DNA from: Malassezia furfur
Taxonomy: Eukaryota
Assembly: GCA_052055015.1 (NCBI GenBank)
Contig: JBQJIT010000003.1
Direction: 5' to 3' (one strand)
Length of the DNA stretch: 64,000 nucleotides
A program made the translations under genes and the position numbers. The notes below the pieces were generated by a model that was given only the letters and a program-made list of their open reading frames with translations, made no database searches and was not told the origin of the DNA. How positions within the stretch are numbered: the first letter of the stretch is position 1; each line of letters starts with the position of its first letter. Below, in pieces: positions 3,722-33,403 of this stretch.

Positions 3722-4566
3722 TCGGCGGTGCCGTACACGACGTGCAGGTGTTGCCCCACGATTGTGCGTCCATCGAGCGCACGCACGACGTGCTCGGCGT
3801 CGTGAGCATCGATGAGCGTCACCTGCGCGGCAAATGTCTCGTCGTTGGCGCGCGGCTCGACCCAGTCGACGTGCGCCACTGCCGCATAAGGTGCCACGAG
3901 CGCACGCACGTCTTCCGCGTCGATCGTTGCGCACGGCAACAGGCCGCTGATGACGACGCGACTGCACGGTCCGTGGGCCGCCTCGGCGGTGCTGCGCTGC
4001 ACGCGCGCATAGCTCACCTCCAGTGAGTAGCCGCACCACACGCGGCCCTGTAGGTGGTGCATCGCGTCGTGCGCCTCGCGCGCTGTGTCCATGTCGACGA
4101 ACCCCCGGCGGCGTGCCTGGCCATCGAGCATCGAGAGGATGACGCAGTGCCGCACGGTGCCGTATGCGGCAAACAACTTTTCTAGCTGTACAGTAGTGAC
4201 GTCCAAGGGGATATTGAGCACGTAGAGGTTCCTGGGGGCGGGCGCTGATGCGGGCGGTGCTGAGGGCGGCGTCGTGGCCGGCGCCGTGGGCTCGGTGGGC
4301 GCGTCGTGGCACACTGGATACACGTGGCTGCGTCAGCGCGCGACGTACAGCTGGAAGCCGGCGTACATGGTGTTGTTGCGCAGGCACGCAAACTCCATAT
4401 CGAGCTGGGTGTAAAGTGCAACGGTCGCCTTGAAGCGGCCGCACTGCTGCGACACGACGACGCTGCGCACCTCGAGCGGCTGGAAGAGCTGCGCGATCTC
4501 GGCGGGCGTCACGGACGGACGGAGTGGCTCAACCACCACACGGAACTTGGGCCTACGGCGTGTCAT
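3718..4566 (-). CDS. Multi-RRM RNA-binding protein (2 exons)
   Basis: ATG 4566; 21-nt intron 4328-4348 (gtacgtcgcgcgctgacgcag) joins the 4333..4962 and 3718..4323 ORFs in frame; central RRM with RNP2 NLYVLNIP and RNP1 RRGFVDM, flanked by two weaker RRM-like segments. Confidence 0.75.
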
Positions 4567-6987: not shown

Positions 6988-8104
6988 ATGGACGCGCTGC
7001 TGGACCAGGTGAGCGACCCGAGCGACTGGCCCGAGGCTTGGGCCACGCTTCGGCCGCTTGATGCGAGCTTGCGTTGCGGACTGTGCTATGTATGTGCGGT
7101 GCTGATCCAGGACATTTTCCGCGCGCCCGTTGCCCTGCGCGAATGCGGGCACGTTTTCTGCTCGTCGTGCATCCGCACGCACATCAACCAGCCGGGCGGC
7201 TCAGGGTCGTTCTGCCCCAACTGTCGTCAAAAGAAGGCGTACGACAGTGAGCTGATGCCTCAGCTGGCACTCGAAGCGGCTGCCACGAGCTGGCGCACCG
7301 CACGGTACGTCGTCGCCTAACGCAGCGCCGACCTGGTCACCAAACAAAAGCGGCTCGACACGTTGGAACGCACGCGTGCGGCCACCACCCACGAGATACC
7401 CCCGCCCGTAACCGGCTCAGAGAAGCGCACCGCGGAGCCGGAGCATGGCCGCCGCCTACGCCCGCGCAAGGAGGAGACGGTGGATTACCGCAGCTTGCAG
7501 GGTATGTCGTGCGCGCCTCACGCAGCCGACGACACTGTCCAGTGCCCGATTTGTGCTCGAAGCTTTACTGCTGCCGACCTTAATACGCACCTCGACATGG
7601 GCTGCGACCCGTCGTCATCCTCTCCCTCGCCGGCGCCGGACCCTTTTGCGCACGCCAAACGACTCACACGGCCACAGTACCAGCTCAAATCCGAGAAGGA
7701 CCTACGAAAAATGCTTGGCGTACGTCTCTTCCTGACGCAGTCCCTCGGCCTGCCCACGCAAGGGCCCAAGGACCGCCTGATCGAACGGCACCGGCAGTGG
7801 GTCAACGTGTACAACGCCAACCTCGATGCCTCACCAGCAAATCGCGAATCGCTTGAGAGACTACGGCGCAACCTGCTGGCATGGGACAGGAACCAAGACG
7901 AGGTCGGGGTCCATGCTAAGGACAGGGTGTCCTCCGAGAAACAGTACCGGTCGTGGCTTGTATGTCGCCCTACTTATGCAGCATACCCATCGCAGCCAGT
8001 ATGCGGATCTGGCAGCCAAAGCCCGCGCATCACTTGCACCTGCTCCCAAGGCGGACGCGCCTACGGATGACCCCGACGCATCTTCTTCGACAGAATCGAG
8101 ATAG
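6988..8104 (+). CDS. RAD18: E3 ubiquitin ligase Rad18 (RING, UBZ4, SAP); 6 exons
   Basis: Introns 7090-7110, 7305-7325, 7502-7525, 7720-7740, 7960-7981. Spliced product gives RING CGLCYDIFRAPVALRECGHVFCSSC...CPNC, UBZ VQCPIC...LNTHLD and SAP-like LGSLGLPTQGPKDRLIERHRQW...YNANLD. Confidence 0.9.
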
Positions 8105-9716: not shown

Positions 9717-10505
9717 TCAGAATTTCCCTGTGTAAATAACAAGGTAGACTTACCCCGAAGCAGATTCTTGATCATCTCACGCGCCGTGATATACGCCGTG
9801 TTGAAAAAGGTGGGGAAGTCGAGCGTAGACGAGATGGTGTCCGCGAAACCGAAAGGAAGCATGGGAGGGATCCAACCTAGACGGTGAGCGATTGACCTAC
9901 CTTGCGCAAGCTCCAATGCCCAGCATCCAGATTCAGGCATCATGTACTGCTTTACCAGACCGCGCGGGAGATAGTGCATCGCACCAGCCGGGTAGCGCTC
10001 GGGGGTCAGATCCCCGGCGCGGAATGCCTGTTGCTCTCCGTAAAGAATGTGGAAGTAGTCGTCCGCAGTGTGACGACCCGTGTGTCCCTCGGTACCAATG
10101 GGCGTACCAAAGAAGATCAGGTACTCCGTGATGGATGCATGGATGATGTACATGGAGCCCATTGCACCGCCGGCATTGTTGAACACCCATTCGGAGTGGT
10201 CCCGGAATGAGTTAGGGTTCAGCGTAGGACCGACCTTGGGGTCCTTGCGCAGCTCCGTAACAATGTGCTCAAAGATCCCATCGGTGTTGTTGCCGTGCTT
10301 GGCGATCGCTTCCTTGGCAATCGCATGCAGCTTGGGCTGGTCAAAGATGTAGAAAGAACGCTGAGTTAGTGCGGAGACGTACAATGTGCGCATCCACGTA
10401 GGTGAAAATGGCGACGAACGCTGCCAGAATGGTCGCAATAATGGCAATGCAGCGCATCCAGGAGCCAGAAGGCTTAGAGGCTTGCACCTTTCGCACACGA
10501 GGCAT
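9717..10505 (-). CDS. ERG2: C-8 sterol isomerase (Erg2/sigma-1 receptor family); 4 exons
   Basis: Introns 10361-10382, 9877-9900, 9728-9753. Motifs EWVFNNAGGAMGSMYIIHASITEYLIFFGT, GHTGRHTADDYF, ELAQGWIPPMLPFG; spliced C-terminus NLLRGKF*. Confidence 0.93.
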
Positions 10506-10651: not shown

Positions 10652-11367
10652 TTAATCGGCTGCTGCCCATAGCTTTTCAGCCAAGTCAAACGAAGTCATA
10701 TCATTTTGCTTGCGCGACTTTTCATCCACATCAAAGGAGACCGCGACGTTGCGACGTGCCGAACGAACCAACAGAGACGTGATGGGGCCGTCTGGATTGG
10801 CTGGGTCACGAAAAGGTACGAATCCCATGCCACGGAACAGCTGCAATGCAAGACTGGATCAGTCACAACTCAATACATACGCGCTGCGGTCCATGCCAAC
10901 CTCTTGCTCGATGTCCCAGTTTTCCACCGCATCGCTTTCTCTCCGCAACTCTTCAATTTCCGTCTCCAGCATTGAGAGCGCTGCTTCTTGCTCGTTAATT
11001 TTCTTGGCCAAATCGAACTTCTCGTTCTCCATCTCCTTCATTGTGGTTTGGTGCGTCTCCAGTGAGTGCCAGTCTGCTGCAGACCGCGTCGAGCTCTCTC
11101 GCAATTCTGCTACAGATGCCTGCAATTCTGAGATTAGTCTTCGTACATACGGTCTAGCATCGCCTGTGTCTTGGCCCGCTCTGCTTCGCGCTCCTCCTTG
11201 GTCTCTTTCATCACGCGCGTATATTCGTTAATACGCGCGATTTCCTCATCGGGGATCAAAACAGAATTGAGTTCCTGAATCATCTCACTGCAAAAAAGGT
11301 CAGGCGTGTTCCACACGTACGGTAGACTTGCTTCCGGAATCGCCGAACTCGACTCGCGACGCGCCAT
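10652..11367 (-). CDS. SPC24: Kinetochore Ndc80-complex subunit Spc24-like; 4 exons
   Basis: Introns 11288-11320 (in frame, less certain), 11128-11150, 10854-10880. Coiled coil followed by LALQLFRGMGF...LLVRS...FDLAEKLW, resembling the Spc24 RWD domain. Confidence 0.7.
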
Positions 11368-11432
11368 GGTGTGAGCGAGCGGAGCGGGGGTGTTGGTCTC
11401 CACGCAAATGGCATCACGTGATTCAACAATGC

Positions 11433-11442: not shown

Positions 11443-11445
11443 GTG

Positions 11446-11550: not shown

Positions 11551-11660
11551 TTGCAGTTGCAAGAATTAGTTACGTTCAACATACTTGAGGAGATACCTAC
11601 TTGACCTACAGGTACAACCGTTTGTTTGCTTGTGCTGCGAACGTGTGCAGGCAAGAGGCG

Positions 11661-13852
11661 TCACTGCGGTGCTACGGAACTATCCAATTGGCCCTGCCAT
11701 TCCGGCTTGATCACCCATTTGGATCCAGGCTTTTTGCTCTCGCGCGTCGCACACTCCTGTAGGCGTGTCTCGATGGCTGCTTTGCTGACGCCTTTTACGA
11801 TGGGACCAAAGTGCTCACGGAGATCCTCAAGGAGCGCGGGCTTTGACCTTGTAGAGCCTTGAATCAGTTTGAGTAGCTCGGGGAGATGGGTATCGGGGAA
11901 GTTGAACTTGGGCGTCCGTGCGGTGGTGGGTGCAGGAGTTGGGTTTGTCGTCGACGTGGGTGCAGCCGACTCGGTGGACTCTTTCGGCACTGTCTTTTCC
12001 TCATTCGACGGTGCCAGCTCGATAGTCGTTGAAGTAAATGTGAAAGGATCGAGGCCCACATAGGCATCATTGAGGAACTGGATGCGGTAGGGTATAAAAC
12101 TGTCGTGAGTTGGCTCGCCGAGGGTCTGTTCCCAGTGAGGTCCTGTGATATAGGGCACAAGCTTCGAGTCAAAGCGGCGCCCCAACAGCTTGATCTTCTT
12201 CTTCGGCTGAAGCACATTCACGTGTTTCTCCGGCTGCTTGCTCTCAGAGGCAAGATCCGGCATCCCATATTCGGCTTCTTCAGGGGGAACCTCCTCAATG
12301 ACTTCCAAGTCGTCTTCGAGCCAGTCATCCATCTCGGAATCGTCGTTGTCCGACCCAGCCATGCTCTCTTCATCCTCGCGATCATCCACCGCATCGACAT
12401 TCTCTCCCTCTTCCTCCTCCCACTCTGCATCGGAGTCGTACGAATAGTCCAGTGCAACGGGGTCTTGGCCAAACGGCTTGCGCGGCGTAATAAACGTCGA
12501 TGCCCGCGACCAAGTACCGACCCAGCCCGGTCGCCGGTCCGTTTGGAAATGCAAGAGCTTGATGGGCAACAAGCGGCGGTTGTTCAGTTTCTCCAGTTCA
12601 TGCTTGGTCTGTTCCTCGGCGTTGCCTCCCAGAACGTCCGACTCTTGCACGCATTTCATGATGTCCCGCACCGAAACAGGTGGATGAATACCACGCGGAT
12701 GTGCCTTGCATTGTGTCCCCATCCGTTTGAACTGCACGAGAAGCTCTTCCTTGTTATGCTCGCGTGCATCCATCTTGTGCAGAAGCGTATCATCAACTTC
12801 GTGATAGAAAGGGTTGAGATTGGCCATATTTTTGTACTCGCATGGTAGGAACGTACGCTGGAAATCGTTCTTCTCTTCTTCCTCCTTCTTGGGTGAGGCG
12901 CGCGTGGTCGGCTGCTGAAAGAAGGAGTTAAACAGACGCACTTGTGCCTGTTTGTCCTTTTCGTTTTTCTGTTCCTTGGCCTGACGTTCCTGTTCTTTGG
13001 CCTGGCGCTCCGCCTTTTTGGACTCGCGCAGCTTACTGCGCTCCGACTTTTCCTTCGGAACGGGCGTCACGGGCGGCGCTGGTGGTTCCGAGTCAGCTTT
13101 TGGCGCAGGGGTTGGGGTCACTGGCGCATCCTTGCCTTTGGCCACCTTTTTTCCATCCAGGAGTGACTGTCGCATGTCTTCGGGAAGTGCATCGAACTGC
13201 TCCAAGGCCTGCGATTTCGCTTGACCACGCTCTTCGCGGCGAGCAAGGAGTTTAGCAAGGTTTTCTTCGGGAAGCAAGCCCACGTCATTGACTTCCCAGC
13301 GCCATAGCTGGAGCGAAGGCACCATGCTCGAATCGGGTGGTGCATCAATACCGTAGTTGACGCGCTGCGCAATCGATTCGATGGTCGTCTGCAGGAGCTG
13401 AACAGGCAGTACGTCCACAACATCGCCATTTTCTGACGTCTTTTCCAACGCCTTATGTCCCTCGGGCAGGAGCGTCGCGCGAATAAGCTTGGCGAGCTCG
13501 GCTGCACTTTTGTCGCTGGGTGAGAAGGGAGGCGTACCTTTCTTGCGTCAGGCTGGCGACCACTGGTATATGTTCTTGCGGAATGGCATCCAGCGGCGCA
13601 TTTGCATGTTCAGCAAGGAACGACTGGAATCCGAGCACGGCTATGGTCAGGCTTACACGTACCGCGCAGCACCGGCATCGTTCGGTCCCAACCCACGCCC
13701 TTTTGGCGGAGGTTCAGGCGAGAGTTGCGTAGGGTGACGAGTGGGGGCGGTGTTCGTGCCTTCTTGGACGACTTGGGCGCCTCCTGTTGCTCGGTCGTCT
13801 TTCGCTTCGGCGTGCCGGGGCTGGGGGCCGCGTCCCCTGCGCGTTCAGCCAT
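11661..13852 (-). CDS. RLF2: Chromatin assembly factor 1 large subunit (Cac1/Rlf2/p150); 3 exons
   Basis: Introns 13641-13662 and 13516-13537 (22 nt each). KER-like charged region, PIP-like QVRLFNSFF, KLLHFQTDRRPGWVGTW, LDYSYDSDAEWEEE and a C-terminal winged-helix-like segment. Start at MAERAG is inferred. Confidence 0.88.
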
Positions 13853-13869
13853 ATCGGCTTCCGGAAAAG

Positions 13870-13891
13870 ACGCGTCGCGCGTTGCACGCGT
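13870..13891. promoter_or_regulatory. Tandem MCB elements in the CAC1/RFC2 divergent promoter
   Basis: ACGCGT at 13870-13875 (followed by CGCG) and 13886-13891 within the 82-nt spacer between two S-phase genes. Confidence 0.6.
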
Positions 13892-13934
13892 GGAATTAAA
13901 GATCGGCTGCCGATCGGCCGCAGGTTTCATCCTC

Positions 13935-15096
13935 ATGTCGGAAGCACGCGCCGAGAACCGGCCGTGGGTCGAGCGCTAGTAGGTGCTATGGCTTACTCAG
14001 TCGACCGAAGAACATTGATGAGGTCGCTTCGCAGCAACATGCGGTGACCATTCTCCGTAATGCGCTCAAAACAGCCAATGTAGGCAGCACGACTTACCCA
14101 GCTCCCGCACATGCTCTTCTATGGCCCGCCCGGCACAGGCAAGACGTCGACCATCCTGGCGCTGGCGCGCCAGCTGTATGGGTACGTGGAGTTTCCTGAC
14201 GCAGACCTGAGCTGATGAAATCGCGTGTCCTGGAGCTAAATGCGTCTGACGAGCGTGGCATTTCCGTGGTGCGCGAAAAAATCAAGTCGTTCGCCAAGAT
14301 GGCCGTCTCTGCGCCGAATCCGTACGTGATACGCTGACCGTGCAGCAACTATCCCTCGCCTCCGTACAAGATCGTGATCCTCGACGAGGCCGACAGCATG
14401 ACCCAAGACGCCCAAGGCGCGCTCCGTCGTATTATGGAGCAGTACAGTCGCACGACACGTTTTTGTCTCATTTGCAACTACGTCACACGGTATGTGGGCT
14501 TCTGATGCAGCATTATTGAGCCGGTCGCATCGCGATGCAGCAAATTCCGGTTCCGCCCGCTGGACCAGGCCAGCACGGAGGAGCGTCTGCGGTTTATTGC
14601 GACCTCCGAGGGCCTCAAGCTCAACGATGACCTAATACCTGCGCTGATTCGGGCATCAGAAGGGGATATGCGCCGTTCTATCACCTACCTGCAGTCTGTC
14701 TCTCGCCTGGCATCGGCGCGCGGCGGTGATGTGCGCGATATGACGGGCGATGCCGTGGCTGAGCTCGCGGGAATTGTGCCTCAGCGCATTATCGAGGCGC
14801 TCGCGCGGAGCGTCGGTATCGACACGGATGAAGACAGCGGACCGTGCGCCCATGGCTCGTCGTTTGACCGGATTTCCTCAGCGGTGCAGCATGTGGTACG
14901 CGAAGGGTATTCGAGCACGCAAGTGGTTCTTCAGCTGCACGACTATGTGATTCTGCATCCCCTGTTGAATGCGCGGCAAAAGACCAAGTGTGCACTGCAG
15001 TTTGGCGAGACAGACAAGGCGCTCATGGACGGCGGCAACGAGGCGCTCCAGCTGCTGCACCTGTGCCTCCAGCTCCACCAAGCCGTAGCCGTGTAG
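13935..15096 (+). CDS. RFC2: Replication factor C small subunit Rfc2; 6 exons
   Basis: Introns 13979-14000, 14080-14101, 14182-14204, 14322-14345, 14490-14510 restore [49 protein letters not shown] and [15 protein letters not shown]. Confidence 0.95.
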
Positions 15097-15126
15097 GATT
15101 AGTCATCTTTGCTTTCTTCGACCGTC

Positions 15127-15569
15127 ATGCCGTACGTGGCTCGCGTGCTAACCCTAGGCTCTACGAGTTGTTCTGCGTGGCGATTGCGTCTGCCGAATCG
15201 GCGCCACTGCGCGACCTGGTGCAGTCGACTTCGCGCCTCGTGCTCGACCACGGCGGTGTCGTGCGCAACGTGCAATATTGGGGCAAGCGGACCCTGCCGC
15301 AACGGGCACGGAGACACCAGCAATACCATACGGCCGGCGAGTAAGTTGCTTGCATTGCTGACCTTAGCTACTGGCTGATGCAGTTTGATACCAATGCACC
15401 GACGCTCAAGGTGCTCAACGACCGTTTCCGCCAGGACCCGCGCGTGGTGAAGTGGAACACCCTCAAGCTCGGCGAGAAGCTCCACGAGCTGGTACCGCCC
15501 GGTGCGAACGGCGGCACGACGCCATCGCAGGCGACGATGGGTGGCAAGTCGGTGGACTACCTGGGGTAA
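15127..15569 (+). CDS. MRP17: Mitochondrial ribosomal protein bS6m; 3 exons
   Basis: Introns 15132-15157 and 15341-15367; MPLYELFCVA...GGVVRNVQYWGKRTLP...GDYWLMQFD...DPRVVKW is the S6 pattern. Confidence 0.88.
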
Positions 15570-15589: not shown

Positions 15590-16792
15590 TTACACTTGGC
15601 CGGCGAGCACGATCTGGTCAGTGACGTACTGTGAGTCGGCACACCCCAGTACCTCGTAGATCTGTGCGCTCTGTAGCCCCTTGATCCGCTCGCATTCGAC
15701 CGAGGTATAGTTTGCGAGCGCGCGGCCAACCTCGACGTCTTCTGATGCGCCCATGTCGGTGGTTGGCCGGCGCACAAGCAGGCGCACGGCCTGAAGCCGT
15801 TCCCAGTTGCCCTGCACGCCCACGACGCCGGCCGGAAGCAGCCGCCCGCCTGAGTCGCGGCTGCTGATCCGGTCGTACGCGCCCTGGTCAATAATGAGCG
15901 AGCCAACCGGGTGCATCGCATGCAGGATGCGCCATTTGCGTGCGGGCAGCCGTGACTGGCTCGGGAGGAACATGGTGTGAGCAGGCTCGGCCGCTGCAGC
16001 ATGCGCGCCATCATCCACCGACTTGGGCACGCCACGCTGGACAATGCGGAGGATATTTTCGGGGTGCTCGCCATTGAGAATCACGGTCGCGACGCCCGCG
16101 GCGGTCGCCAGTTCAGCGGCGATGAGTTTGGTCTGCATGCCGCCTGTGCCAAAGGAGGAGCCGAGCGTCTTGACGCTCGCGGCGCGGCGCGCCTCGTCGA
16201 CGCTCCGCACTATACTCAGGCGGCGTGCATCGGGGCACGTCCGTGGGTTGTCGGTGTACAGTCCGTCGACGTCCGTGCACAGGAAGAGGAAGTCGGCGTC
16301 GACGAGGCCCGCGGTGATGGCAGAAAGCGAGTCGTTGTCACCGAAGCGCATTTCGTACACAGAAACAGTGTCGTTTTCGTTGACAATCGGCACGGCGTCG
16401 ATCGTGCTGGACATGAGTGTCTCTAGGGTGGTGCGTGCGTTGTGGTAGCGGTTGCTGTCGGCGAGGTCGGTGCGTGTGACGAGCACCTGTGCGACGTTGA
16501 TGCCCACGACGCCGAACAGATTGTCCCAGAGCGACATGAGGCGCAGCTGGCCGAGTGCCGCGAGTGCTTGGCGCTGCCCGAGCTCCTTGGGCCGCTCCTG
16601 CATACCCATCCGCACGCGGCCGACGCCGATTGCGCCGGAGCACACGAGGATCACGCGGTGCCCAGCGGTGCGGAGATGCAGCACGGTCTCTACAATCGAG
16701 GCCATGATGCGGATCTTAGGCTGCATCGTCGACTCCGACAGGATCGACGACGTGCCGAGCTTGATGACCACCGTCTTGCCGCCTTCGCTCAT
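15590..16792 (-). CDS. PRO1: Glutamate 5-kinase (with PUA domain)
   Basis: VVIKLGTSS, VCSGAIGVG, PIVNENDTVS, FGDNDSLSA, FGTGGMQTKL, LLPAGVVGVQG. Confidence 0.95.
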   Translation of the reverse strand: MSEGGKTVVIKLGTSSILSESTMQPKIRIMASIVETVLHLRTAGHRVILVCSGAIGVGRVRMGMQERPKELGQRQALAALGQLRLMSLWDNLFGVVGINVAQVLVTRTDLADSNRYHNARTTLETLMSSTIDAVPIVNENDTVSVYEMRFGDNDSLSAITAGLVDADFLFLCTDVDGLYTDNPRTCPDARRLSIVRSVDEARRAASVKTLGSSFGTGGMQTKLIAAELATAAGVATVILNGEHPENILRIVQRGVPKSVDDGAHAAAAEPAHTMFLPSQSRLPARKWRILHAMHPVGSLIIDQGAYDRISSRDSGGRLLPAGVVGVQGNWERLQAVRLLVRRPTTDMGASEDVEVGRALANYTSVECERIKGLQSAQIYEVLGCADSQYVTDQIVLAGQV

Positions 16793-16862
16793 GCTGGTCG
16801 GACGCTGGCCGCACGGCCGGCCACGTGACGCCGCCGCACACTTTTTTTCTTGGACTGCTTCG

Positions 16863-21945: not shown

Positions 21946-23273
21946 ATGGCCAGCGTCGCGGACGTGCATGGAGCGCCGGGCGACTCACACCGGCCTCCTG
22001 CCATGCCCAATCCGCCCGAGATGCGCGAAAAGAAGCGCCGGCGCCGTACGCGCCCGCACGAGGTCGACATCCTGATGTCGGCCTACTTGCAGAACGCGTT
22101 TCCCAACGAAAAGACGCGCGAGCGTCTCGCGCAGACCGTCGGGATGACACCGAGGTACGTCGATTGCACTCACGCAGAGCCGTATCGGTCTGGTTCCAGA
22201 ACCGGCGCCAGGCGGAAAAGAAGCGCTCACAGCGCTACGGCGGGTCCGGCGCGTCGCCCGCGCTGAGCGGCGCGCAACGCCTGCCTGTGCAGACGTTCGA
22301 CTTGGCCCACCTGCACGGTCTGCGCGACCTGCACGAGCTCGTGGGGCCGCTGCCCGGTGCAGCGCGCCAGGGCGCGATGCGCCGCGCGACGAGTTCGCCG
22401 TGTATTTCGCTCACCACCGACGCTGCGGGCCATGCACAGCTCGGCCCGAGCGCACCGGCGCCGGAGCCTGTGGGTGACATCGACATCTGGCAGCGCATGG
22501 AAAGCTCGAGTGCGGTGAACAGTTCGAGCGATGTCGAGGATGCCGACGCCGATGCTCGCGGGTCGCAGGACGAAGACGAGGAGGAAATGACGCTGCGTCG
22601 CCTCGCGCAGCGCCGCGCCCGAAAGCGCGATGCGCCCGAAGCATCGGACGCGCGCAACATGATGCACGCACGCCGCCCATCGGCCGCACGCCCGCTCAAG
22701 CGGCAGGCGTCGCTCAGCCTCGAGTTTGCCGCCGCGCGTGAAACGTCTCCGCCGTCCTCCGCCAAGCCGCTGCGGCGCACTGAAAGCATGCCTGTGCGTG
22801 CACCGTTGCAGCCGGTGCAGCCGCCAGCCGCGGCGCCCGTTGCCCCGATGGCGCGTCCGCTGCACGTGCCGCGCAAGCCCACCGCGCTCGATGCGCTGCG
22901 GCTTGCGCAGGACAAGGAGAATGCGCCGCCACGCCTGCCGCGCGCGTGGCCGCTCTCGGCATTCCGGCGCGTGGCGTCGGCCGGCTCGCGGGCGCCGCGC
23001 GAGTGTGCGCTGTGGCCGCGTACGCCATCGATCCCGGTGACGCGGCGCGAGTCGAGTGCGCGGAGCGATGCGGCGCCCGTGCGTGTCGTTGCGCCGCTCA
23101 AGGCCGAGGAACACGATGACAGTGGCTTCTTTGAGGAAGAGTCACAGGCGCACTCGTCGCCAGCATCGCAATCCAGTGCTAAGTCCATGCCGGTGGGGCA
23201 CTTTACCGAGCACGACCGCCAGGCCGTGGAACTGTTGCTGGGTCTCGGCTCGATCCCGGTTGGACATGCATAG
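21946..23273 (+). CDS. YOX1: Homeodomain transcription factor, Yox1/Yhp1-like; 2 exons
   Basis: 23-nt intron 22155-22177 joins KRRRRTRPHEVDILMSAY...VGMTPR to AVSVWFQNRRQ, completing the homeodomain; C-terminal AVELLLGL motif. Orthology is inferred. Confidence 0.7.
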
Positions 23274-23291: not shown

Positions 23292-24510
23292 TTACTCGGA
23301 TGCGCGGTACAGTGCGTTTTGTTCAATGTACTGAATCACACTGTTAGGCAGCAGGTACTTGATCGAGTAGCCGCGGCGCACAAACAGGCGGACCTTGGAC
23401 GAGCTGATATCGTTGTAGATGGTCTGCTTGACCACGATCAAGTTGCGACGGTACATCCACAGCAGGTCGTGCGACAGCAAAAACGACCACACGTCCGCCC
23501 CGGTGCGCTCCACAATCAGGCAGCCATACCGGCCCAGGATGTGGTGCAGATCCGAGTCGGCCCACACGCCGGGCTCACCCATGCTCTGGATCAGATCGCC
23601 GCCGGCCAGCAGCATGATCTTGATTGGCTTGCGTGTGCCATCGGAGAGCAACAGGCCCTTTTCGTTGTGTTTGCCGTTGATCTCCTCGTTAAAGTGGTCG
23701 AGCACCACAGCGGTCCGTTGGTACTCGCCCTGCAGTGACTCCCACGCATCCACCATGAGCCAGTTGGACGAGCGCTCCACGGCGAGCCTGGGTCAGCGCA
23801 CTTCGGCAACGTACTCGCACATGCGCACGCGATGCGTCGCCTTAGCCAGGCCGGCCTTCTTGTACTGGTCCGACACGGGGCTATAATAGCCGGCGACCAG
23901 CTCGTAGTCGCCGTTCTCAATCACCTGGTCCTTGGCCATCTCAAACATGCGCCTATCGTCAGCCGTCGTCCACGTACAGGTGCAGGTAAGTGGGCGGGGA
24001 AAAACTGCCGCACGCGACGACAACGAGCGGCTGCTTGCGCTCGTCACGCATTTGCGTCGCGAACCGGTGCCGCGGAAACGTGTATGTGTCCATCGACTCA
24101 CCCTGCCGCGGTACGGGCGCAGTATGCGGGGAGCGCAGCGCGTGAAAGGTCTCGTCGACCACCTGCGACGCGTCGAGCTCTTCGTCGAGCTCCTCGGTCT
24201 CGTCGATCTCGCCGCTATCGTCAGCATGGCGCGCATCAAGCGCCCATTTCGGCACATCGCCATCCCGTCGCTTGTGCTGCAGCTTCGACCGCGCGTGTAC
24301 GCCGCCCTCGGCGCGCGTCGTCGTGTTGGGGACCTGCTGCTCGAGGCCCTGCGTGACGGGCCCTGCCCCGGTCACTGCAGCGCCCGTGAACGGCGGCGAG
24401 TCGAGGCGATACGAGTCGCGGTTCAGTGCCTGGTAGCGCAGCGAGGTAAACCCGTCGGCGTTCTGCACTCCGGACGCGCTCGCGGCATCGCCCCGGGGCT
24501 TGGAAGCCAT
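23292..24510 (-). CDS. NMA1: Nicotinamide/nicotinate mononucleotide adenylyltransferase; 3 exons
   Basis: Introns 23953-23977 and 23788-23814 restore GSFSPPTYLHLRMFE and HRVRMCELAVER; LLAGGDLIQSM, NDISSSKVRLF. Confidence 0.95.
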
Positions 24511-24549: not shown

Positions 24550-27125
24550 CTATGGCGTGCGCTTCGTCCAGCGGACGAGCGTGGGCATTTGATTCGCTTT
24601 GAGCTGGGTTAGAGGTTAGGAACGTACCGCACCCTGCTCTGCGAGGTGCACGGCCTCGCCGTTGGCCGATTTGGGCAGATGCCAGAACCGACAGTTGCCG
24701 CTGGGGTCAGTGGTATCACGTACTCGACATCCTCCCATTGCCGCACGAGATAATCGAGTAGCTCCCACAGATCGCGGTTGGGCACGGACTCACCGGGCAT
24801 GCCCTGCGGTGTCTCGCGCGTGAGCACCCAGCCATTCTGGCGCCACGTCCAGATATCGTGCGAAATGCCACGCACGATCCACGCGTTGTGCACCGCAATG
24901 ACCACCTTATCAAAGCCCTCCTTCTCCCAGTGCACGTACTCCAGCGCGGCAATCACGCTGCGCAGCGCCGCGCGCTGCGTCGTCGTGCGGTTCGGGAACT
25001 CGGGGCGCTCCAGCCGGCGCGATACGTTCTTCTCGGCGCGCGCCGCATCGAACGACTCGCCCAGCGCCGCACACAGCGACGCCGTCGGCGAGTACACCAC
25101 ACCGATGCCGCCCTGCACCTTGGTGTTTTCCGTGGTACCAAAGTGGCTCGCAAGGGAGCGCAGCTTCTCTTCACTCACCTTACCGGAACCGTCGGCGGCG
25201 CGCTTGGCGGCCTGCACCGCCTGCACCTGCGCCCCGGTCAGCGACGAGCCGGCAGCAAAGAGGAGCACCTGGCGGGGGTCGGTGCGGCGCACAAAGCGAT
25301 ACGGGTGCCACGAGCGGGGGTCTGGCACAAACAATGCACGCACCGTCTCCAGCGAGGTCTGCGCGGCGCTGTCGTGTGCCGCCGGGCGCGCTTGTCCGTA
25401 GCCACTCACGCGCTCCCACTGCGAGCCGGCGTCCATACCGATCGGCTGCTGCGCAAGCGTCTCGGTGGAGCGCAACGTGTTGTACTTGGGTGCGTCCCAG
25501 ACGTGCGTGCCAAACTTGGGGTTTGACTGACTCGGAGGGGGCTGGTATTTGTACTCGCGGAAGTTGGTGCGCACCGGCTTAGGCATCGCCTCGGGCCGAT
25601 CGTACTTCATGTTCGACAAGAGCGTCATTTGGCTGATCGTCGGTGCAGTCGACGGTGCAAGACTAGCAGCATGGGACTGGGCCGTTCGGATCGACGCCGT
25701 ATCCGCAATCGGGATATGGTGCTTCTTGGGCATCGTCCAGGTGTCGACGGTGTGCTCCGATACGGCATCGGCGAATGCAACCGTCTTTGTGTCGTCTGCA
25801 CCAGCCTCACACACCGGCTCAGCACGCGGCTCCGGGACATCGCCAGCCTGCGCATCCTCGGGCGCTGCTTTGGTCACACTGTTGGACTCGGCCTCGGCCT
25901 TGGGCTCCACTTCAGCCTTGGGCTCGGCATCGGCCTTGGGCTCAACCTCGGCCTTGGGCTCGGCGTTGGCCTTGGACTCGGCGTCGGCTGCAACCTCTGA
26001 ATCGGCTTTCGCCTCCGGTTCGGCATTCGCCTCCCGCTCAGGTTCAGCTTCGGCCTTAGGTGTTGGCTTAGGCTCCTCGACCGGCTCGGCATCGTTGTCC
26101 GCCTTGCCCTGGGCCTCGGCTGCGGCTTGGTCTGTCTCGGGGTCGTCGCCGCTCTGGGCCTTCTTTGCCGCCTTCTTAGCCTGCTTCTTGGCCTTCTTCT
26201 TGGCAGCCTTTGAAGGCTTCTCGGCCGTCTCTTCAGGCTGCTTGGCCGCGTCCTTGGCCTCGGTAGACGCCTCGGCGTCGGGCGGCTGGTCCGCTGGCCC
26301 CTCGGGCTGCTTCGTTGCCTTGGACTCTTTGGACTCTTCGGACCCCTTCGTATCTTTCGCGTCCTCTGTGTCCTGCTCCTCGAAGGCCTCGGCAAATGCA
26401 GGCTCGTGCGATGCTGAGGTGCTGTGCGATTTGGCGTCGGCATCGTCTGCCGCCGGCATAGTGTCTTTGGTTTCACTCGCCTTGTCCGACACGCTGGGAG
26501 GCGCAGCACTCGACTCGCGCGACCTGAGCACTGACTCCCAGACATTCTCGGTGGCGTTTTCGTCCGCGTCGTCCGTGGAGAAGGCAAAGCCACCGCGCTC
26601 GACGTCCTCCGCATCTGTGGGCAATTCGTCGGCATTACTCGGCGCAAGGTGCACGTCGCGCACACGTTCGGCCAGCGCCTCTGGCTCATCCGTCTTCGAT
26701 GAAGTGGCAGTGGCAGCTCCGACGCGTGTGTCGGTCTGCTCATCGGCGCTTGCGTGGTCCTTGGCGACGCGGGTCTCGTCGCGCTGAACGTCCTGCTTAA
26801 CGGGCTCTTTGTCGCGGTACTCTGCGGCAAGCATCTGTGCAGGTGTCATAGCATCCGTATCTTCATCTCCAAGCACAAATGTCGGCTCGCGTCGGGTGGC
26901 GCGCTCGTATCCGATGATTTCGTCCTCAAAGTCGTACAACAGCTCGGGAGGCTCGGGAAGCTTGGGCACCGCAAATAACCGGCGCGAGGCGGTGTGCGGA
27001 TCGGTCTGGTCAGGTGCATACGTGATGCCCGACGGCGCGTCGAGGCGTACTTGCAGCGAGCCCGACGCCTTGGGCGCGGGCCGCGACGCCAGCCAGGTGT
27101 CCAGGAACCGGGGATCGGCGCTCAT
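24550..27125 (-). CDS. Acidic low-complexity protein with a C-terminal degenerate RNase H-like domain; 3 exons
   Basis: Introns 24701-24723 and 24604-24627. C-terminal segment QVLLFAAGS...GGIGVVY...TTQRAALRSVIAAL...WIVRGI...W...W...NRDLWE...RFWHLP follows the RNase HI pattern. Confidence 0.75.
25891..25980 (-). repeat. 18-nt coding tandem repeat (about 5 copies, EPKAxx)
   Basis: gccttgggctc recurs at 25897, 25915, 25933, 25951, with a variant at 25969. Confidence 0.8.
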
Positions 27126-32276: not shown

Positions 32277-33403
32277 CTACTGGTAGTCCAGGTAGTCTAA
32301 AAGAGCGTCCGGGACCGGCGGTGATGACCGCTTGGTCTCTTGCAAGTGCGACGAAATGGTCTCGATCAGCATCCACGTAATGCCGTGCGACAAAAAGCTG
32401 CGCACCGCACTGATGCCAAGCCCGCGGTAGAGCCGCGCGATGTGGTTCAGCGGCACGCCCGCGATCGTGAAGCGTGACGGCGGCGCTGTCGGCTGCGCAT
32501 GCACCAATTTCTTGAACACGCGCACGGCGTTGAGGCGCGGCGCCCCCGCCAATGCATCGCGCTGGATCTGCGTCTTGAGCAAATCCACCGGGTACACCAG
32601 CAGCCACGAGAGCATCCCGGCCGACGAGCCGATCAAAAACGACAGCACGGGGCTCGGCACTCCTAGCGTCTGCTGCCGCGCCTCGAGCTGGTTGCCCACA
32701 GCACGCAGCGTGTCGTAAATGCCAAAGTAGAGTGCGGAGCCGAGCGTGTCGCGGCACAGGTGGAGCGGGAAGCCCAGGTAGAAGCCGCGCACGCCGCCGT
32801 GCGTGCGGTAGATGTCGAGTGCTGCGCGGAAGCCCGACTGCGGCTTGAATGGCGTACTCGGCTCGCCGCGCGCCTTTTGGCGCTGTGCGGCGATGAGAAA
32901 TTCGAGTTGGCGCTGCACCTTGACCAGCTCGAACGGCGCCGAGCCGCAACTGATCACGGTACCGCTCGTCATGCCGCCGAGCGCGCCGTACATCCCAGTG
33001 CGCCACAGCTGGCTGCCGTCGTTGGGGCTGACGTGTGCATCGAGCCAGGATTTCGTGCCGGTGTAAATGCTGAACGACGACGTGCGCACAAAGGTGATGG
33101 TGATCAGCGGGATTGAGGCACCGCGGAAGAGGCCGCGTACGCCTTCCTCGCGTACGACGGCACGGGCACATGCCCATGCACTTGGGTAGTCCTTCACCTG
33201 GAGGCGACTTTTGATGCTGTCAAACTGGCGATCAGGCGTCTACACGTACCGGAAAGGACGCCAGGGTCGACACGAGCGATGCCGGGCCCGCCGATGCCAG
33301 TGTCGGATGCGCTGCCAGTCAGTCGGTCACACATACCATGTAAATACTCGTACAGCTGGTGTACTTGCCGCGCATACGGCGACTCCCGGCGCTGCTCCGG
33401 CAT
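32277..33403 (-). CDS. Mitochondrial carrier (SLC25) protein; 3 exons
   Basis: Introns 33312-33336 and 33225-33249 restore the first signature FPFDSIKSRLQ; second and third signatures PFELVKVQRQ and YPVDLLKTQIQ. Substrate not assignable. Confidence 0.9.

What the first reader, a model, noticed from the sequence alone, without database searches (positions are those of the whole stretch)
13979..14510. Hard geometric floor: branch adenosine at intron position 16 or later
Seen: in the 21-nt introns the branch A is nt 16, followed by 5 nt (e.g. gtatgtgggcttctgAtgcag, 14490-14510). Several longer introns keep the A at nt 16 and lengthen only the tail (14322-14345, 9877-9900, 13641-13662, 31063-31085). 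No intron I indexed has it earlier, and none is below 21 nt. Inference: a 16-nt lariat loop plus a 5-nt tail is the steric minimum of this spliceosome. U1 and U2 footprints would nearly touch, suggesting a non-standard assembly order.
Basis: partly seen in the sequence, partly recalled or inferred. Interest (0 to 1): 0.75.

Follow-up and report, generated by a model that had tools for sequence, protein, structure and literature searches.

The report
Minimal 21-base introns of Malassezia yeast
This stretch of a Malassezia skin-yeast chromosome carries real introns squeezed to 21-31 bases, and none places its branch adenosine before base 16 or has fewer than 5 bases after it, a sharp lower limit that is a new example of the tiny-intron rules already known from a few other organisms.

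Summary
The window is nuclear DNA of a Malassezia of the furfur clade. I built 19 intron-containing gene models that each close into one ORF running to a stop codon, 17 of them from an ATG. They hold 46 GT-AG introns of 21-31 nt. The inferred branch A (in C/T-T-N-A-Y) lies at position 16 (13 introns), 17 (14), 18 (8) or 19-24 (11), and never earlier. The tail is 5 nt (33 introns) or 6-8 nt (13), never shorter. No intron is under 21 nt.

All five introns of the flagged RFC2 gene fall at ungapped, conserved positions in 14 homologues. Loop and tail lengths are uncorrelated. A floor on total length alone is rejected (p about 3e-5).

The steric-minimum reading is plausible but untested, because no RNA or lariat data could be used. 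The 5-nt tail minimum also appears in Yarrowia and Stentor. Stentor branches at position 10, so 16 is specific to this lineage. "Non-standard assembly order" rests on no evidence here.

Very short Malassezia introns are already published (mean 30 bp). My searches found no description of this branch geometry. I class it as a new member of a known kind, of moderate interest.

The parts
13979..14000 (+). RFC2 intron 1, 22 nt, GTAGGT..CTTAC..TCAG, A17, tail 5
   Evidence: Frame-required. The junction PWVERY|RPK is ungapped in 14 homologues.
14080..14101 (+). RFC2 intron 2, 22 nt, A17, tail 5
   Evidence: Frame-required. The junction [14 protein letters not shown] is ungapped.
14182..14204 (+). RFC2 intron 3, 23 nt, A18, tail 5
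   Evidence: Frame-required. The junction QLYG|PE is ungapped.
14322..14345 (+). RFC2 intron 4, 24 nt, CTGAC, A16, tail 8
   Evidence: In-frame stop if retained. The junction lies between conserved blocks.
14490..14510 (+).
   Evidence: In-frame TGA if retained. The junction CNYVTR|IIEP is ungapped.
4328..4348 (-). 21-nt intron in an RRM-protein gene, A16, tail 5
   Evidence: Frame-required; the model closes to an ORF. Pfam RRM_1.
7090..7110 (+). RAD18-like intron 1, 21 nt, A16, tail 5
   Evidence: Frame-neutral. The RING profile resumes at profile position 6 right after the 7 read-through residues. The match spans 67 query residues against 60 in human RAD18.
7305..7325 (+). RAD18-like intron 2, 21 nt, CTAAC, A16, tail 5
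   Evidence: In-frame stop if retained.
7502..7525 (+). RAD18-like intron 3, 24 nt, A19, tail 5
   Evidence: Frame-neutral. Supported by motif and gene model only; not tested by homology.
7720..7740 (+). RAD18-like intron 4, 21 nt, A16, tail 5
   Evidence: Frame-neutral. The SAP profile match starts at profile position 15 directly after the read-through residues.
7960..7981 (+). RAD18-like intron 5, 22 nt, CTTAT, A17, tail 5
   Evidence: Frame-required.
10361..10382 (-). ERG2/sigma-1-like gene intron, 22 nt, A17, tail 5
   Evidence: Frame-required. Pfam ERG2_Sigma1R.
9877..9900 (-). ERG2-like gene intron, 24 nt, CTCAC, A16, tail 8
   Evidence: Frame-neutral. The read-through gives an 8-residue gap against the sigma-1 receptor 7w2b_A.
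9728..9753 (-). ERG2-like gene intron, 26 nt, TTTAC, A21, tail 5
   Evidence: Frame-required.
11128..11150 (-). Spc24-like gene intron, 23 nt, CTAAT, A17, tail 6
   Evidence: Frame-required; the model closes.
10854..10880 (-). Spc24-like gene intron, 27 nt, A22, tail 5
   Evidence: In-frame stop if retained.
13641..13662 (-). CAF1A-like gene intron, 22 nt, CTGAC, A16, tail 6
   Evidence: Frame-required.
13516..13537 (-). CAF1A-like gene intron, 22 nt, CTCAC, A17, tail 5
   Evidence: Frame-required.
15132..15157 (+). Mitoribosomal S6-like gene intron 1, 26 nt, A20, tail 6, after a 5-nt first coding exon (ATGCC)
   Evidence: Frame-required; the spliced product starts MPLYELF. The S6 name is my own reading; Pfam gave no hit on its largest exon.
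15341..15367 (+). Mitoribosomal S6-like gene intron 2, 27 nt, A21, tail 6
   Evidence: In-frame stop if retained.
22155..22177 (+). 23-nt intron, CTCAC, A18, tail 5
   Evidence: Frame-required.
23953..23977 (-). 25-nt intron, A19, tail 6
   Evidence: Frame-required.
23788..23814 (-). 27-nt intron, A22, tail 5
   Evidence: In-frame stop if retained.
24701..24723 (-). 23-nt intron, A17, tail 6
   Evidence: Frame-required.
24604..24627 (-). 24-nt intron with two CTAAC boxes (A12 and A19); A19 has the 5-nt tail
   Evidence: In-frame stop if retained; the gene ends at a stop 18 codons downstream.
31327..31357 (-). ORC-subunit-like gene intron, 31 nt, A23, tail 8 (the longest in the catalogue)
   Evidence: Frame-required.
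31063..31085 (-). ORC-subunit-like gene intron, 23 nt, CTCAC, A16, tail 7
   Evidence: Frame-required.
33312..33336 (-). Mitochondrial-carrier gene intron, 25 nt, A18, tail 7
   Evidence: Frame-required.
33225..33249 (-). Mitochondrial-carrier gene intron, 25 nt, A18, tail 7
   Evidence: Frame-required. A 10-nt in-frame alternative from the branch-blind run has no branch box.
48012..48033 (-). RAD5-like SNF2 gene intron, 22 nt, A17, tail 5
   Evidence: Frame-required.
47335..47356 (-). RAD5-like gene intron, 22 nt, A17, tail 5; the overlapping donor that would give A15 and 20 nt breaks the frame
   Evidence: Frame-required; only the 22-nt form closes the ORF.
45828..45848 (-). RAD5-like gene intron, 21 nt, A16, tail 5
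   Evidence: Frame-neutral. The read-through gives a 7-residue gap against yeast Rad5 6l8n_A inside the conserved VF|SQF block.
45622..45643 (-). RAD5-like gene intron, 22 nt, CTCAT, A17, tail 5
   Evidence: Frame-required.
45548..45569 (-). RAD5-like gene intron, 22 nt, A17, tail 5
   Evidence: Frame-required.
50459..50487 (-). APC10-like gene intron, 29 nt, A24, tail 5
   Evidence: Frame-required.
50317..50340 (-). APC10-like gene intron, 24 nt, CTCAC, A17, tail 7
   Evidence: Frame-neutral. The read-through gives an 8-residue gap against human APC10.
50233..50255 (-). APC10-like gene intron, 23 nt, TTCAC, A18, tail 5
   Evidence: Frame-required.
50103..50125 (-). APC10-like gene intron, 23 nt, A18, tail 5
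   Evidence: Frame-required.
50665..50687 (+). FCP1-like gene intron, 23 nt, TTGAC, A18, tail 5
   Evidence: Frame-required.
51326..51346 (+). FCP1-like gene intron, 21 nt, A16, tail 5
   Evidence: Frame-neutral. The read-through gives a 7-residue gap against S. pombe Fcp1 3ef1_A inside NLIKV.PY|EFFVGIGDIN.
51804..51824 (+). FCP1-like gene intron, 21 nt, A16, tail 5
   Evidence: In-frame stop if retained.
58269..58293 (-). GAL7-like (galactose-1-P uridylyltransferase) gene intron, 25 nt, A20, tail 5
   Evidence: Frame-required. Pfam GalP_UDP_transf and GalP_UDP_tr_C.
60217..60239 (+). Ctr copper-transporter gene intron, 23 nt, A18, tail 5
   Evidence: Frame-required.
60607..60627 (-). dCMP-deaminase gene intron, 21 nt, CTAAC, A16, tail 5
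   Evidence: In-frame TAA if retained; splicing gives CNT|CPCLRC.
62482..62503 (-). HAD phosphatase (PHO13-like) gene intron, 22 nt, A17, tail 5
   Evidence: Frame-required.
62143..62164 (-). HAD phosphatase gene intron, 22 nt, A17, tail 5
   Evidence: Frame-required.
15614..15629 (-). Sub-floor decoy GTACGTCACTGACCAG (16 nt, A12, tail 4) inside coding sequence; not an intron
   Evidence: It lies in the conserved C-terminus ...SQYVTDQIVL of glutamate 5-kinase, which is kept in the M. furfur, M. brasiliensis and Ustilago-group proteins.

Best explanation
The window is a gene-dense stretch of a Malassezia (furfur-clade) nuclear chromosome. Its ordinary U2-type GT-AG introns have been compacted to near their smallest workable size. 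Each intron consists of a 6-nt donor (GTAYGT-like), an unconstrained spacer of at least 6 nt, a 5-nt branch box C/T-T-N-A-Y, then at least 'Y-N-Y-A-G'. This gives two independent minimum spacings: the branch A at position 16 or later, and at least 5 nt after it. Shown: the introns are real, the two lower edges are sharp, and they are independent of each other. Inferred: genome compaction pushes both segments against limits set by the splicing machinery. The 5' limit would be the shortest link that lets the donor (paired to U1, later U6) and the branch box (bound by the branch-point protein, later paired to U2) be held at once and brought together for branching. The 3' limit would be the shortest tail that lets the AG reach the catalytic centre for exon ligation. 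The 5-nt tail is the same minimum as in other lineages. The 16-nt loop is specific to this spliceosome, which keeps full-length donor and branch signals.
For: Organism: the glutamate 5-kinase ORF is 97% identical to the M. furfur protein and 96% to the M. brasiliensis protein. Reality of the introns: all 19 gene models close into one ORF ending in a stop codon, 17 of them starting at an ATG (the g23 and Ctr models were cut upstream of their ATG). 39 of the 46 introns are frame-required, meaning their length is not a multiple of 3 or they carry an in-frame stop if retained. All 5 RFC2 junctions are ungapped against 14 homologues. Of the 7 frame-neutral introns, 4 show exact 7- or 8-residue gaps against solved homologues, 2 show domain-profile breaks at the exact place, and 1 is untested. 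Geometry: A position 16x13, 17x14, 18x8, 19x3, 20x2, 21x2, 22x2, 23x1, 24x1. Tail 5x33, 6x6, 7x4, 8x3. Length 21x9, 22x12, 23x9, 24x5, 25x4, 26x2, 27x3, 29x1, 31x1. Sub-16 motif matches are at chance level: 11 non-nested against 10.6 expected. Independence of the two floors: Spearman 0.013, p 0.93; a length-only floor gives p = 3.4e-5. Conservation: positions 1-6 and the box at -3..+1 around the A are near-invariant, while positions 7-12 have no dominant base (at most 21 of 46). Natural negative control: a perfect-signal 16-nt pseudo-intron (A12, tail 4) sits unspliced in conserved coding sequence. Comparative: the modal Y. lipolytica branch-to-AG spacing of 2 nt after CTAAC equals a 5-nt tail (PMC2483917, passages). 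Stentor has its branch A at 10 of 15 and at 11 of 16, again a 5-nt tail (PMC9505925, passages).
Against: Splicing is therefore inferred from reading frames and homology, and the branch nucleotide from the consensus alone. The sample is 46 introns from one window, so rare shorter introns elsewhere in the genome cannot be excluded. The catalogue was built with a donor matrix and a branch motif, so introns with unusual signals, and introns in untranslated regions, would be missed. A branch-blind run made three calls under 21 nt. I judged them artefacts: two lie in a false fusion across the antisense of neighbouring genes, and one is an in-frame 10-nt alternative to the 25-nt intron 33225-33249. 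The last was not settled by homology. One extra candidate (51625-51648, 24 nt, A19, tail 5) is unresolved. That sterics rather than some other requirement sets the limits is inference.
Confidence: 0.72

Rival explanations
1. The floor is soft. 16 and 5 are the edge of a steep but continuous fitness decline. Genome-wide, a minority of introns would lie below them (for example A14-15, or 19-20 nt), and the window is simply too small to contain any.
For: There are only 46 introns. Annotators of M. restricta set minimum intron lengths of 20 and then 15 nt (PMC6473144, passage), so they did not assume 21 as a hard limit. Sub-floor motif matches do exist at chance level, and some lie in untranslated or intergenic DNA where I cannot test them (59353-59368 +, 59411-59433 -).
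Against: The edge is abrupt: 0 of 46 at 15 or below against 13 at 16 and 14 at 17. None of the 13 longer-tailed introns dips below 16 (p = 3.4e-5 under a length-only model). Where two overlapping donors compete (47335-47356), only the A17 form keeps the frame.
Confidence: 0.25
2. The 16-nt limit is set at early recognition, not by the lariat loop in the catalytic centre. U1 snRNP on the donor, and the branch-point-binding protein and then U2 snRNP on the branch box, need about 6 free nucleotides between them to bind the same intron at once.
For: The minimum spacer between the two conserved elements is 6 nt of unconstrained sequence. In human extracts, shortening the 5'SS-to-branch distance blocks assembly and activation rather than chemistry (PMC6692369, passages). 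Stentor, which conserves only GUA at the donor and has a weak branch region, tolerates a 10-nt loop (PMC9505925, passages), so catalysis itself does not need 16.
Against: Nothing in the sequence tells an assembly limit from a catalytic limit, and both predict the same geometry. The footprint sizes of U1, SF1/BBP and SF3 are recalled from general knowledge and were not measured in this organism.
Confidence: 0.35
3. One reading: because the U1 and U2 footprints collide, the spliceosome assembles in a non-standard order on these introns, for example with U1 leaving before U2 binds stably, or with recognition across exons.
For: The human B complex holds the U6/5'SS and U2/branch helices 15 nm apart and needs about 52 intron nt to span that distance without altering the structure. 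About 50 nt is the measured minimum in human extracts (PMC6692369, passages). Sixteen nt is far below that, so some pre-catalytic geometry must differ.
Against: No data from this organism bear on the order of events. A more compact version of the standard pathway would explain the same facts. [quoted passage not shown] Exon flanks here carry almost no signal (G at -1 in 21 of 46), which gives no support to recognition across exons.
Confidence: 0.15
4. The assumed branch adenosine is wrong. The conserved C/T-T-N-A-Y box is a protein- or U2-binding signal, but branching occurs at another nucleotide, so '16' and '5' do not measure the lariat.
For: No lariat mapping exists here. Two introns have a second candidate box (24604-24627 at A12, 60607-60627 at A12).
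Against: The A is invariant (46 of 46), T at -2 is invariant (46 of 46), C at -3 occurs in 43 of 46 and Y at +1 in 46 of 46. This matches the WCTRAYN branch consensus found across eukaryotes (PMC2483917, passages). The spacing regularities hold whichever nucleotide of the box reacts.
Confidence: 0.08

Closest known systems
Very short introns of Malassezia genomes (M. sympodialis annotation, Zhu et al. 2017, PMC5389616; review PMC7426719)
   Same: Same genus and the same phenomenon. The curated M. sympodialis annotation has 5350 introns with a mean size of 30 bp, 99% supported by RNA-seq (passages and Table 2). The review states that Malassezia genes contain 'very short introns' (passage).
   Different: The main text of that paper contains neither 'branch' nor 'lariat' (0 occurrences each). 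Its supplement, as held, gives only a cumulative size plot. The two-segment minimum (A16 or later, tail 5 or more) is not stated in anything I could search.
Constrained branch-to-AG distance in intron-poor eukaryotes (Yarrowia lipolytica, Trichomonas, Giardia; Irimia & Roy 2008, PMC2483917)
   Same: A strong branch consensus of the WCTRAYN type, no polypyrimidine tract, and a branch box anchored a fixed few nucleotides from the AG. The modal Y. lipolytica spacing of 2 nt after CTAAC equals the 5-nt tail seen here in 33 of 46 introns (passages).
   Different: Y. lipolytica introns are long (median about 204 nt in their table) with no 5' floor at issue. Here the whole intron is minimal and the middle base of the box is free (CTGAC 17, CTCAC 8, CTAAC 7).
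Tiny introns of the ciliate Stentor coeruleus (Nuadthaisong et al. 2022, PMC9505925)
   Same: A fixed geometry at the minimum size: branch A at position 10 of 15-nt introns (90.9%) and at 11 of 16-nt introns, so again a 5-nt tail. The authors also invoke steric clash around a sharply looped lariat (passages).
   Different: The loop is 10-11 nt, not 16. Only GUA is conserved at the donor and the branch region has no strong consensus. Malassezia keeps a full 6-nt donor and a 5-nt branch box.
Ultra-short introns of myxozoans and dicyemids (MBE 2026, PMC13644364)
   Same: A median of 22 bp.
   Different: The branch signal there is only a weakly conserved run of As. In Malassezia most longer introns (33 of 46 have tail 5) lengthen the 5' segment instead. 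That paper's list of lineages with introns under 30 bp does not mention Malassezia.
Minimum 5'SS-to-branch distance in human splicing (Keiper et al. 2019, PMC6692369)
   Same: The limiting quantity is the 5'SS-to-branch distance, not total intron length, and the explanation offered is physical constraint (passages).
   Different: The human minimum is about 50 nt and is tied to a 15-nm separation of helices in the B complex. Here it is 16 nt.

Membership tests
U2-type (GT-AG) spliceosomal introns | GT at the 5' end and AG at the 3' end | tested here: met
   46 of 46.
U2-type (GT-AG) spliceosomal introns | Extended donor consensus complementary to U1/U6 (GTRNGT type) | tested here: met
   GTACGT 25, GTATGT 9, GTAGGT 3, GTGCGT 3, GTAAGT 2, others 4. 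G at +5 in 46 of 46 and T at +6 in 43 of 46. Partly circular, because a donor matrix was used to find them.
U2-type (GT-AG) spliceosomal introns | Branch-site consensus (CTRAY type) upstream of the AG | tested here: met
   C/T-T-N-A-Y in 46 of 46, with C at -3 in 43 of 46. The finder rewarded such a box but did not require it, and it put no preference on the box's position from 10 onward.
U2-type (GT-AG) spliceosomal introns | Removal restores a continuous, homologous coding sequence | tested here: met
   19 of 19 models close into one ORF ending in a stop, 17 from an ATG. 39 of 46 are frame-required. 5 RFC2 junctions are ungapped. 4 frame-neutral introns appear as exact gaps against solved homologues.
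U2-type (GT-AG) spliceosomal introns | Observed absence from mature RNA | not testable with these tools
U2-type (GT-AG) spliceosomal introns | Lariat formed at the box adenosine | not testable with these tools
   No lariat data; the branch nucleotide is inferred from the consensus.
Constrained branch-to-AG introns (Irimia & Roy 2008 class) | Branch box anchored at a fixed, very short distance from the AG | tested here: met
   Tail 5 in 33 of 46 and 5-8 in 46 of 46. Tail-5 motif matches number 49 against 5.3 expected.
Constrained branch-to-AG introns (Irimia & Roy 2008 class) | No polypyrimidine tract | tested here: met
   Only 2-5 nt lie between the box and the AG, and position -4 is G or C in 34 of 46.
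Constrained branch-to-AG introns (Irimia & Roy 2008 class) | Intron-poor genome | tested here: inconclusive
   46 introns in 64 kb, spread over 19 of about 38 gene models. That is not intron-poor by the standard of that paper. PMC8476143 counts M. sympodialis among intron-poor fungi (passage).
Tiny-intron regimes (ciliates, myxozoans, dicyemids, nucleomorphs) | Modal intron length under 30 nt with a narrow distribution | tested here: met
   Mode 22, range 21-31, and 45 of 46 are under 30 nt.
Tiny-intron regimes (ciliates, myxozoans, dicyemids, nucleomorphs) | Branch adenosine at a fixed position counted from the 5' end | tested here: not met
   The position varies from 16 to 24. There is a floor, not a fixed place, and the tail is the more constant segment.

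The most novel reading that the evidence does not exclude
A transformable basidiomycete yeast splices introns with full-strength donor and branch signals only 6 nt apart. Its 5'SS-to-branch distance (16 nt) is about a third of what the human B complex can span. Its pre-catalytic spliceosome must therefore be built or ordered differently, for example by U1 hand-off before stable U2/SF3b docking, or by a collapsed A/B architecture. Two separable hard limits (16 and 5) would then report the minimal geometry of the first and second catalytic steps.
Probability: 0.22. Interest if true: 0.7.

Novelty: new member of a known kind. Interest (0 to 1): 0.4.

Why it matters
How small a spliceosomal intron can be, and which step sets the limit, is an open question usually discussed for ciliates, nucleomorphs and parasitic animals, whose splice signals are weak and whose genetics are difficult. 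Malassezia offers the same extreme (21 nt) with strong, easily read donor and branch signals. Gene-deletion and insertional-mutagenesis tools exist for M. furfur and M. sympodialis (PMC5654937, abstract seen in the listing). If the two limits hold genome-wide, each could be tested one nucleotide at a time. In practical terms, the rule (A at 16 or later, tail of 5 or more, first AG after the box) would improve gene models. Some public Malassezia proteins already look mis-annotated in a way that missed tiny introns or gene boundaries could explain: one RFC2 record also carries a ribosomal S6 domain, and another lacks a conserved N-terminal block. The finding does not change the established picture that Malassezia introns are very short.

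Tried and rejected
1. Whole-genome distribution: no genome is held for this window.

3. Orthologous loci from other Malassezia: one scan of metagenome contigs with RFC2 exon 6 matched 279 pattern stretches, and none was confirmed. I did not use the second scan.

4. Gene finders:
- A flat GT..AG gene finder with no signal models gave mostly spurious long introns and was discarded.
- A version with donor and acceptor matrices but no branch model gave three calls under 21 nt. 16435-16448 and 19403-19415 lie in a false fusion running through the antisense of the glutamate kinase and DEAD-box genes. 33240-33249 is a 10-nt in-frame alternative to the 25-nt intron. I rejected all three.
- The final finder still fused neighbouring genes through false introns of 65 nt (15093-15157) and 78 nt (24550-24627), made a false +-strand fusion at 16863-20670 with two false introns, and proposed dubious introns of 120 nt (6843-6962) and 92 nt (56027-56118). 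These six calls were removed by hand after reading the frames. The hand-curated model list also added seven introns that the finder had not chosen: 7090-7110, 7720-7740, 11128-11150, 15132-15157, 24604-24627, 60217-60239 and 60607-60627.

5. Sub-floor candidates examined and rejected as chance:
- 7247-7263 (+), in a RAD18 exon, would shift the frame.
- 27006-27021 (-), in an 849-codon open frame, would shift the frame.
- 15614-15629 and 15629-15644 (-) lie in conserved coding sequence.
- 37438, 46457, 59915, 44872 and 44012 are antisense to genes.
- 59353-59368 and 59411-59433 are intergenic or in untranslated regions and are untestable.

6. Extra candidates not counted: 51625-51648 (24 nt, frame-neutral; the alignment to Fcp1 is not decisive), 35955-35975 (21 nt, GAG acceptor) and 8957-9007 (51 nt).

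7. A test for depletion of above-floor decoys in exons has no power at window scale: 13 extras against 10.8 expected, my tally.

8. Splicing factors in the window: none was identified. The 1655-aa helicase matches ASCC3/Slh1 best, not Brr2, and the 801-aa DEAD-box protein could not be assigned.

9. Earlier notes of this scan: nothing on this genome or on Malassezia.
Full report
**What the window is.** The 64-kb window is GC-rich (0.53-0.71 in 2-kb steps) and gene-dense. The translated ORF 15593-16900(-) is a glutamate 5-kinase, 97% identical to the M. furfur protein and 96% to the M. brasiliensis protein. Identity falls to 88% and lower for the other Malassezia species and to 69% or less for the other basidiomycetes listed. 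The DNA is therefore nuclear DNA of a Malassezia of the furfur clade. Everything below rests on this window, on homologous proteins and on papers.

**The observation at the stated place.** The range 13979-14510 lies in an RFC2 (replication factor C small subunit) gene. Its five introns are:

| Intron | Length (nt) | Branch A | Tail (nt) |
|---|---|---|---|
| 13979-14000 | 22 | 17 | 5 |
| 14080-14101 | 22 | 17 | 5 |
| 14182-14204 | 23 | 18 | 5 |
| 14322-14345 | 24 | 16 | 8 |
| 14490-14510 | 21 | 16 | 5 |

. Spliced this way, the gene encodes a 349-aa protein. In an alignment with 14 RFC2 homologues fetched, all five junctions lie in ungapped, strongly conserved columns. Examples are [27 protein letters not shown] and CNYVTR|IIEP. 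The homologues were 3 Malassezia proteins, 9 from other basidiomycetes and 2 from Saccharomycetaceae.

**A catalogue for the whole window.** I wrote a small Viterbi gene finder. It used codon usage trained on the window's own long ORFs, a donor matrix, an acceptor base and a branch-box term. The branch-box term had no preference for position from 10 onward, and introns from 10 nt were allowed. I then curated its output by reading frames. Curation removed six finder calls:
- two false introns of 65 and 78 nt that fused neighbouring genes;
- two false introns inside a false +-strand fusion at 16863-20670;
- two dubious introns of 120 and 92 nt.

It added seven introns that the finder had not chosen: 7090-7110, 7720-7740, 11128-11150, 15132-15157, 24604-24627, 60217-60239 and 60607-60627. 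Nineteen intron-containing gene models resulted. All 19 close into a single ORF ending in a stop codon. Seventeen start at an ATG; the g23 and Ctr models were cut a few codons upstream of theirs. Most carry recognisable domains, including RRM, ERG2/sigma-1, CAF1A, RFC, ORC, mitochondrial carrier, SNF2, APC10, GalT, Ctr, dCMP deaminase and HAD.

The models hold 46 introns, and the support for them is as follows.
- 39 of the 46 are frame-required. Their length is not a multiple of three, or they carry an in-frame stop if retained.
- Of the 7 frame-neutral ones, 4 were checked by searching the unspliced read-through translation against solved structures. Each shows a gap of exactly the intron's codons inside a conserved block: 51326-51346 against S. 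pombe Fcp1 (7 residues), 45828-45848 against yeast Rad5 (7), 9877-9900 against the sigma-1 receptor (8) and 50317-50340 against human APC10 (8).
- 2 more (7090-7110 and 7720-7740) split a RING profile and a SAP profile exactly where the read-through residues lie.
- 1 (7502-7525) is untested.

**The geometry.** I took the 3'-most C/T-T-N-A-Y with no AG before the acceptor as the branch box. The distributions over the 46 introns are:

| Feature | Distribution (value x count) |
|---|---|
| Branch A position | 16x13, 17x14, 18x8, 19x3, 20x2, 21x2, 22x2, 23x1, 24x1 |
| Tail (nt) | 5x33, 6x6, 7x4, 8x3 |
| Length (nt) | 21x9, 22x12, 23x9, 24x5, 25x4, 26x2, 27x3, 29x1, 31x1 |

So 46 of 46 have A at 16 or later, a tail of 5 or more and a length of 21 or more. 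Counting only the 39 frame-required introns, A16 still has 8 and the 21-nt class has 5. The conserved positions are 1-6 (GTACGT 25, GTATGT 9) and the box (T at -2 in 46 of 46, A in 46 of 46, C at -3 in 43 of 46, Y at +1 in 46 of 46). C at -3 from the AG occurs in 41 of 46. Positions 7-12 have no dominant base, and exon flanks are weak (G at -1 in 21 of 46). At the floor, the donor hexamer and the branch box are therefore separated by six unconstrained nucleotides.

**Is it more than chance?** A motif scan of both strands (GT[AG]NG[TC], CTNAY with A anywhere from position 8, first AG 2-12 nt after the A) was compared with 40 second-order Markov simulations of the window.

| A position | Observed | Expected |
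|---|---|---|
| 16 | 17 | 1.43 |
| 17 | 15 | 1.18 |
| 18 | 6 | 1.15 |
| 19 | 6 | 1.12 |
| 9-15 together | 18 | 10.6 |

Of the 18 matches at A=9-15, 7 are nested inside real introns because of a second GT within the spacer. That leaves 11, which is chance level. Tail 5 gave 49 matches against 5.3 expected. The non-nested sub-floor matches were examined one by one.
- Five are antisense to genes.
- Two are intergenic or in untranslated regions and cannot be tested.
- Four lie on the sense strand of coding sequence, where splicing would destroy the frame.

The clearest of these is GTACGTCACTGACCAG at 15614-15629(-), with a perfect donor, a perfect box, A12 and tail 4. It encodes part of the C-terminal ...SQYVTDQIVL of glutamate 5-kinase, which is conserved in Malassezia and in Ustilago-group proteins. 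It is a natural example of good signals at sub-floor spacing that are evidently not used. In intron 47335-47356, two overlapping donors would give A17 with 22 nt or A15 with 20 nt, and only the former closes the ORF.

**The floor is on the 5' segment, not on total length.** The 13 introns with tails of 6-8 nt have A at 16 (4), 17 (3), 18 (2), 19, 20, 21 and 23. This is the same distribution as for the tail-5 introns (Mann-Whitney p 0.81). Loop and tail lengths are uncorrelated (Spearman 0.013, p 0.93). Suppose only total length had a floor of 21, and the excess length followed the distribution seen in tail-5 introns. The chance that none of the 13 would have A before 16 is then 3.4e-5. Only 4 of the 37 introns longer than 21 nt keep A at 16. 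The commoner way to be longer is to keep the 5-nt tail and lengthen the spacer.

**How it most likely works.** Shown: the introns are real, the signals are strong, and there are two sharp and independent lower limits. Inferred: compaction of this genome has driven both intron segments against limits set by the machinery. For the 5' segment, the donor must be paired (first to U1, then to U6) while the branch box is bound and then paired to U2. The two must also be brought together for branching. Six free nucleotides would be the shortest linker that allows this. For the 3' segment, the AG must reach the catalytic centre after branching, and three nucleotides plus AG would be the shortest tail. 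The sequence cannot say whether the 5' limit acts at early recognition or at catalysis.

Published comparisons help here.
- In Y. lipolytica the modal spacing is 2 nt between CTAAC and AG, which is a 5-nt tail (PMC2483917, passages).
- In Stentor the branch A is at 10 of 15 and at 11 of 16, again a 5-nt tail, but with a loop of only 10-11 nt (PMC9505925, passages).

The tail minimum therefore looks general. The loop minimum of 16 is specific to this spliceosome, which, unlike that of Stentor, keeps a six-base donor and a five-base box.

**The 'assembly order' idea.** In human extracts about 50 nt between donor and branch are needed. In the human B complex the two RNA helices are 15 nm apart, which the authors equate to a minimum of about 52 intron nucleotides if the structure is not to change (PMC6692369, passages). 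Sixteen is far below that, so some pre-catalytic geometry must differ in Malassezia. A more compact standard pathway explains this as well as a changed order of events does. The same puzzle is discussed for other tiny-intron lineages, where authors conclude that conventional U2-dependent splicing is compatible (PMC13644364, passages). Nothing in the window bears on order. I looked for splicing factors among the window's genes and found none that could be assigned.

**What is known and what is new.** That Malassezia introns are very short is in print. The curated M. sympodialis annotation has 5350 introns with a mean of 30 bp, 99% with RNA-seq support (PMC5389616, passages and Table 2). A review says the same in words (PMC7426719, passage), and annotators of M. 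restricta set minimum intron lengths of 20 and 15 nt (PMC6473144, passage). I ran five full-text searches combining Malassezia with intron, branch point, spliceosome, intron length and tiny or ultra-short introns. None turned up a description of branch-site position in this genus. The main text of the M. sympodialis paper contains neither 'branch' nor 'lariat', and its held supplement shows only a cumulative size plot. A 2026 paper listing lineages with introns under 30 bp names ciliates, microsporidia and dicyemids but not Malassezia (PMC13644364, passage). Subscription journals and bioRxiv supplements were not searchable, so this is not proof of absence. The rule itself is of a known kind: fixed or floored branch geometry in minimal introns, and a constrained branch-to-AG distance. 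I therefore class the finding as a new member of a known kind.

**Limits.** There are no RNA data and no lariat data. There is one window and 46 introns. The catalogue was built with signal models, so unusual introns and introns in untranslated regions are invisible. One 10-nt in-frame alternative (33240-33249) was rejected for lacking any branch box and not by homology. One further 24-nt candidate (51625-51648, A19, tail 5) is unresolved, and it would not change any conclusion.

Noticed in passing
15127-15157 (+): The mitoribosomal S6-like gene appears to start with a 5-nt coding exon (ATGCC) followed at once by a 26-nt intron. The spliced product begins MPLYELF. The start lies only about 30 nt after the RFC2 stop codon. 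The S6 name is my own reading.
   Followed up: partly
protein records P0125, P0126: Public Malassezia RFC2 records look mis-annotated in ways that missed tiny introns or gene boundaries could explain. The M. cuniculi record (390 aa) also carries a ribosomal S6 Pfam domain, suggesting fusion with the neighbouring gene. The Malassezia sp. CBS 17886 record lacks the conserved VERYRPK..DEV block.
   Followed up: partly
24604-24627 (-): This 24-nt intron has two CTAAC boxes, at A12 and A19. Only A19 fits the floor and the 5-nt tail, so it would be a natural substrate for testing which box is used.
   Followed up: no
15614-15644 (-): Two overlapping perfect-looking pseudo-introns (16 nt each, A12 and A13) lie inside the conserved C-terminal coding sequence of glutamate 5-kinase.
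   Followed up: yes
11446-11550 (-): Rfam finds a tRNA of 105 nt (47.2 bits, full model), which implies a tRNA intron. ARAGORN reported no tRNA in the window.
   Followed up: no
51625-51648 (+): This is a possible 47th intron in the FCP1-like gene (24 nt, GTACGT..CTCAT..CCAG, A19, tail 5). It is frame-neutral, and the alignment to S. pombe Fcp1 is too weak there to decide.
   Followed up: partly
whole catalogue: The commonest donor is GTACGT (25 of 46), with C at +4. The middle base of the branch box is free (CTGAC 17, CTCAC 8, CTAAC 7, CTTAC 3). Intron GC is 0.56 against 0.64 for the window. Intron phase 2 is over-represented (23 of 46).
   Followed up: no
3718-3721; 8000-14000; 58000-64000: Convergent genes 2075-3721(+) and 3718-4566(-) overlap by 4 nt at their stop codons. 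Two regions of lower GC (0.53-0.59 against 0.65-0.71) coincide with the most intron-rich genes.
   Followed up: no
36888-41852 (-): A single-exon helicase of 1655 aa matches ASCC3/Slh1 (the RQC-trigger helicase) better than Brr2, at 1179 and 1145 bits against 997 bits.
   Followed up: partly
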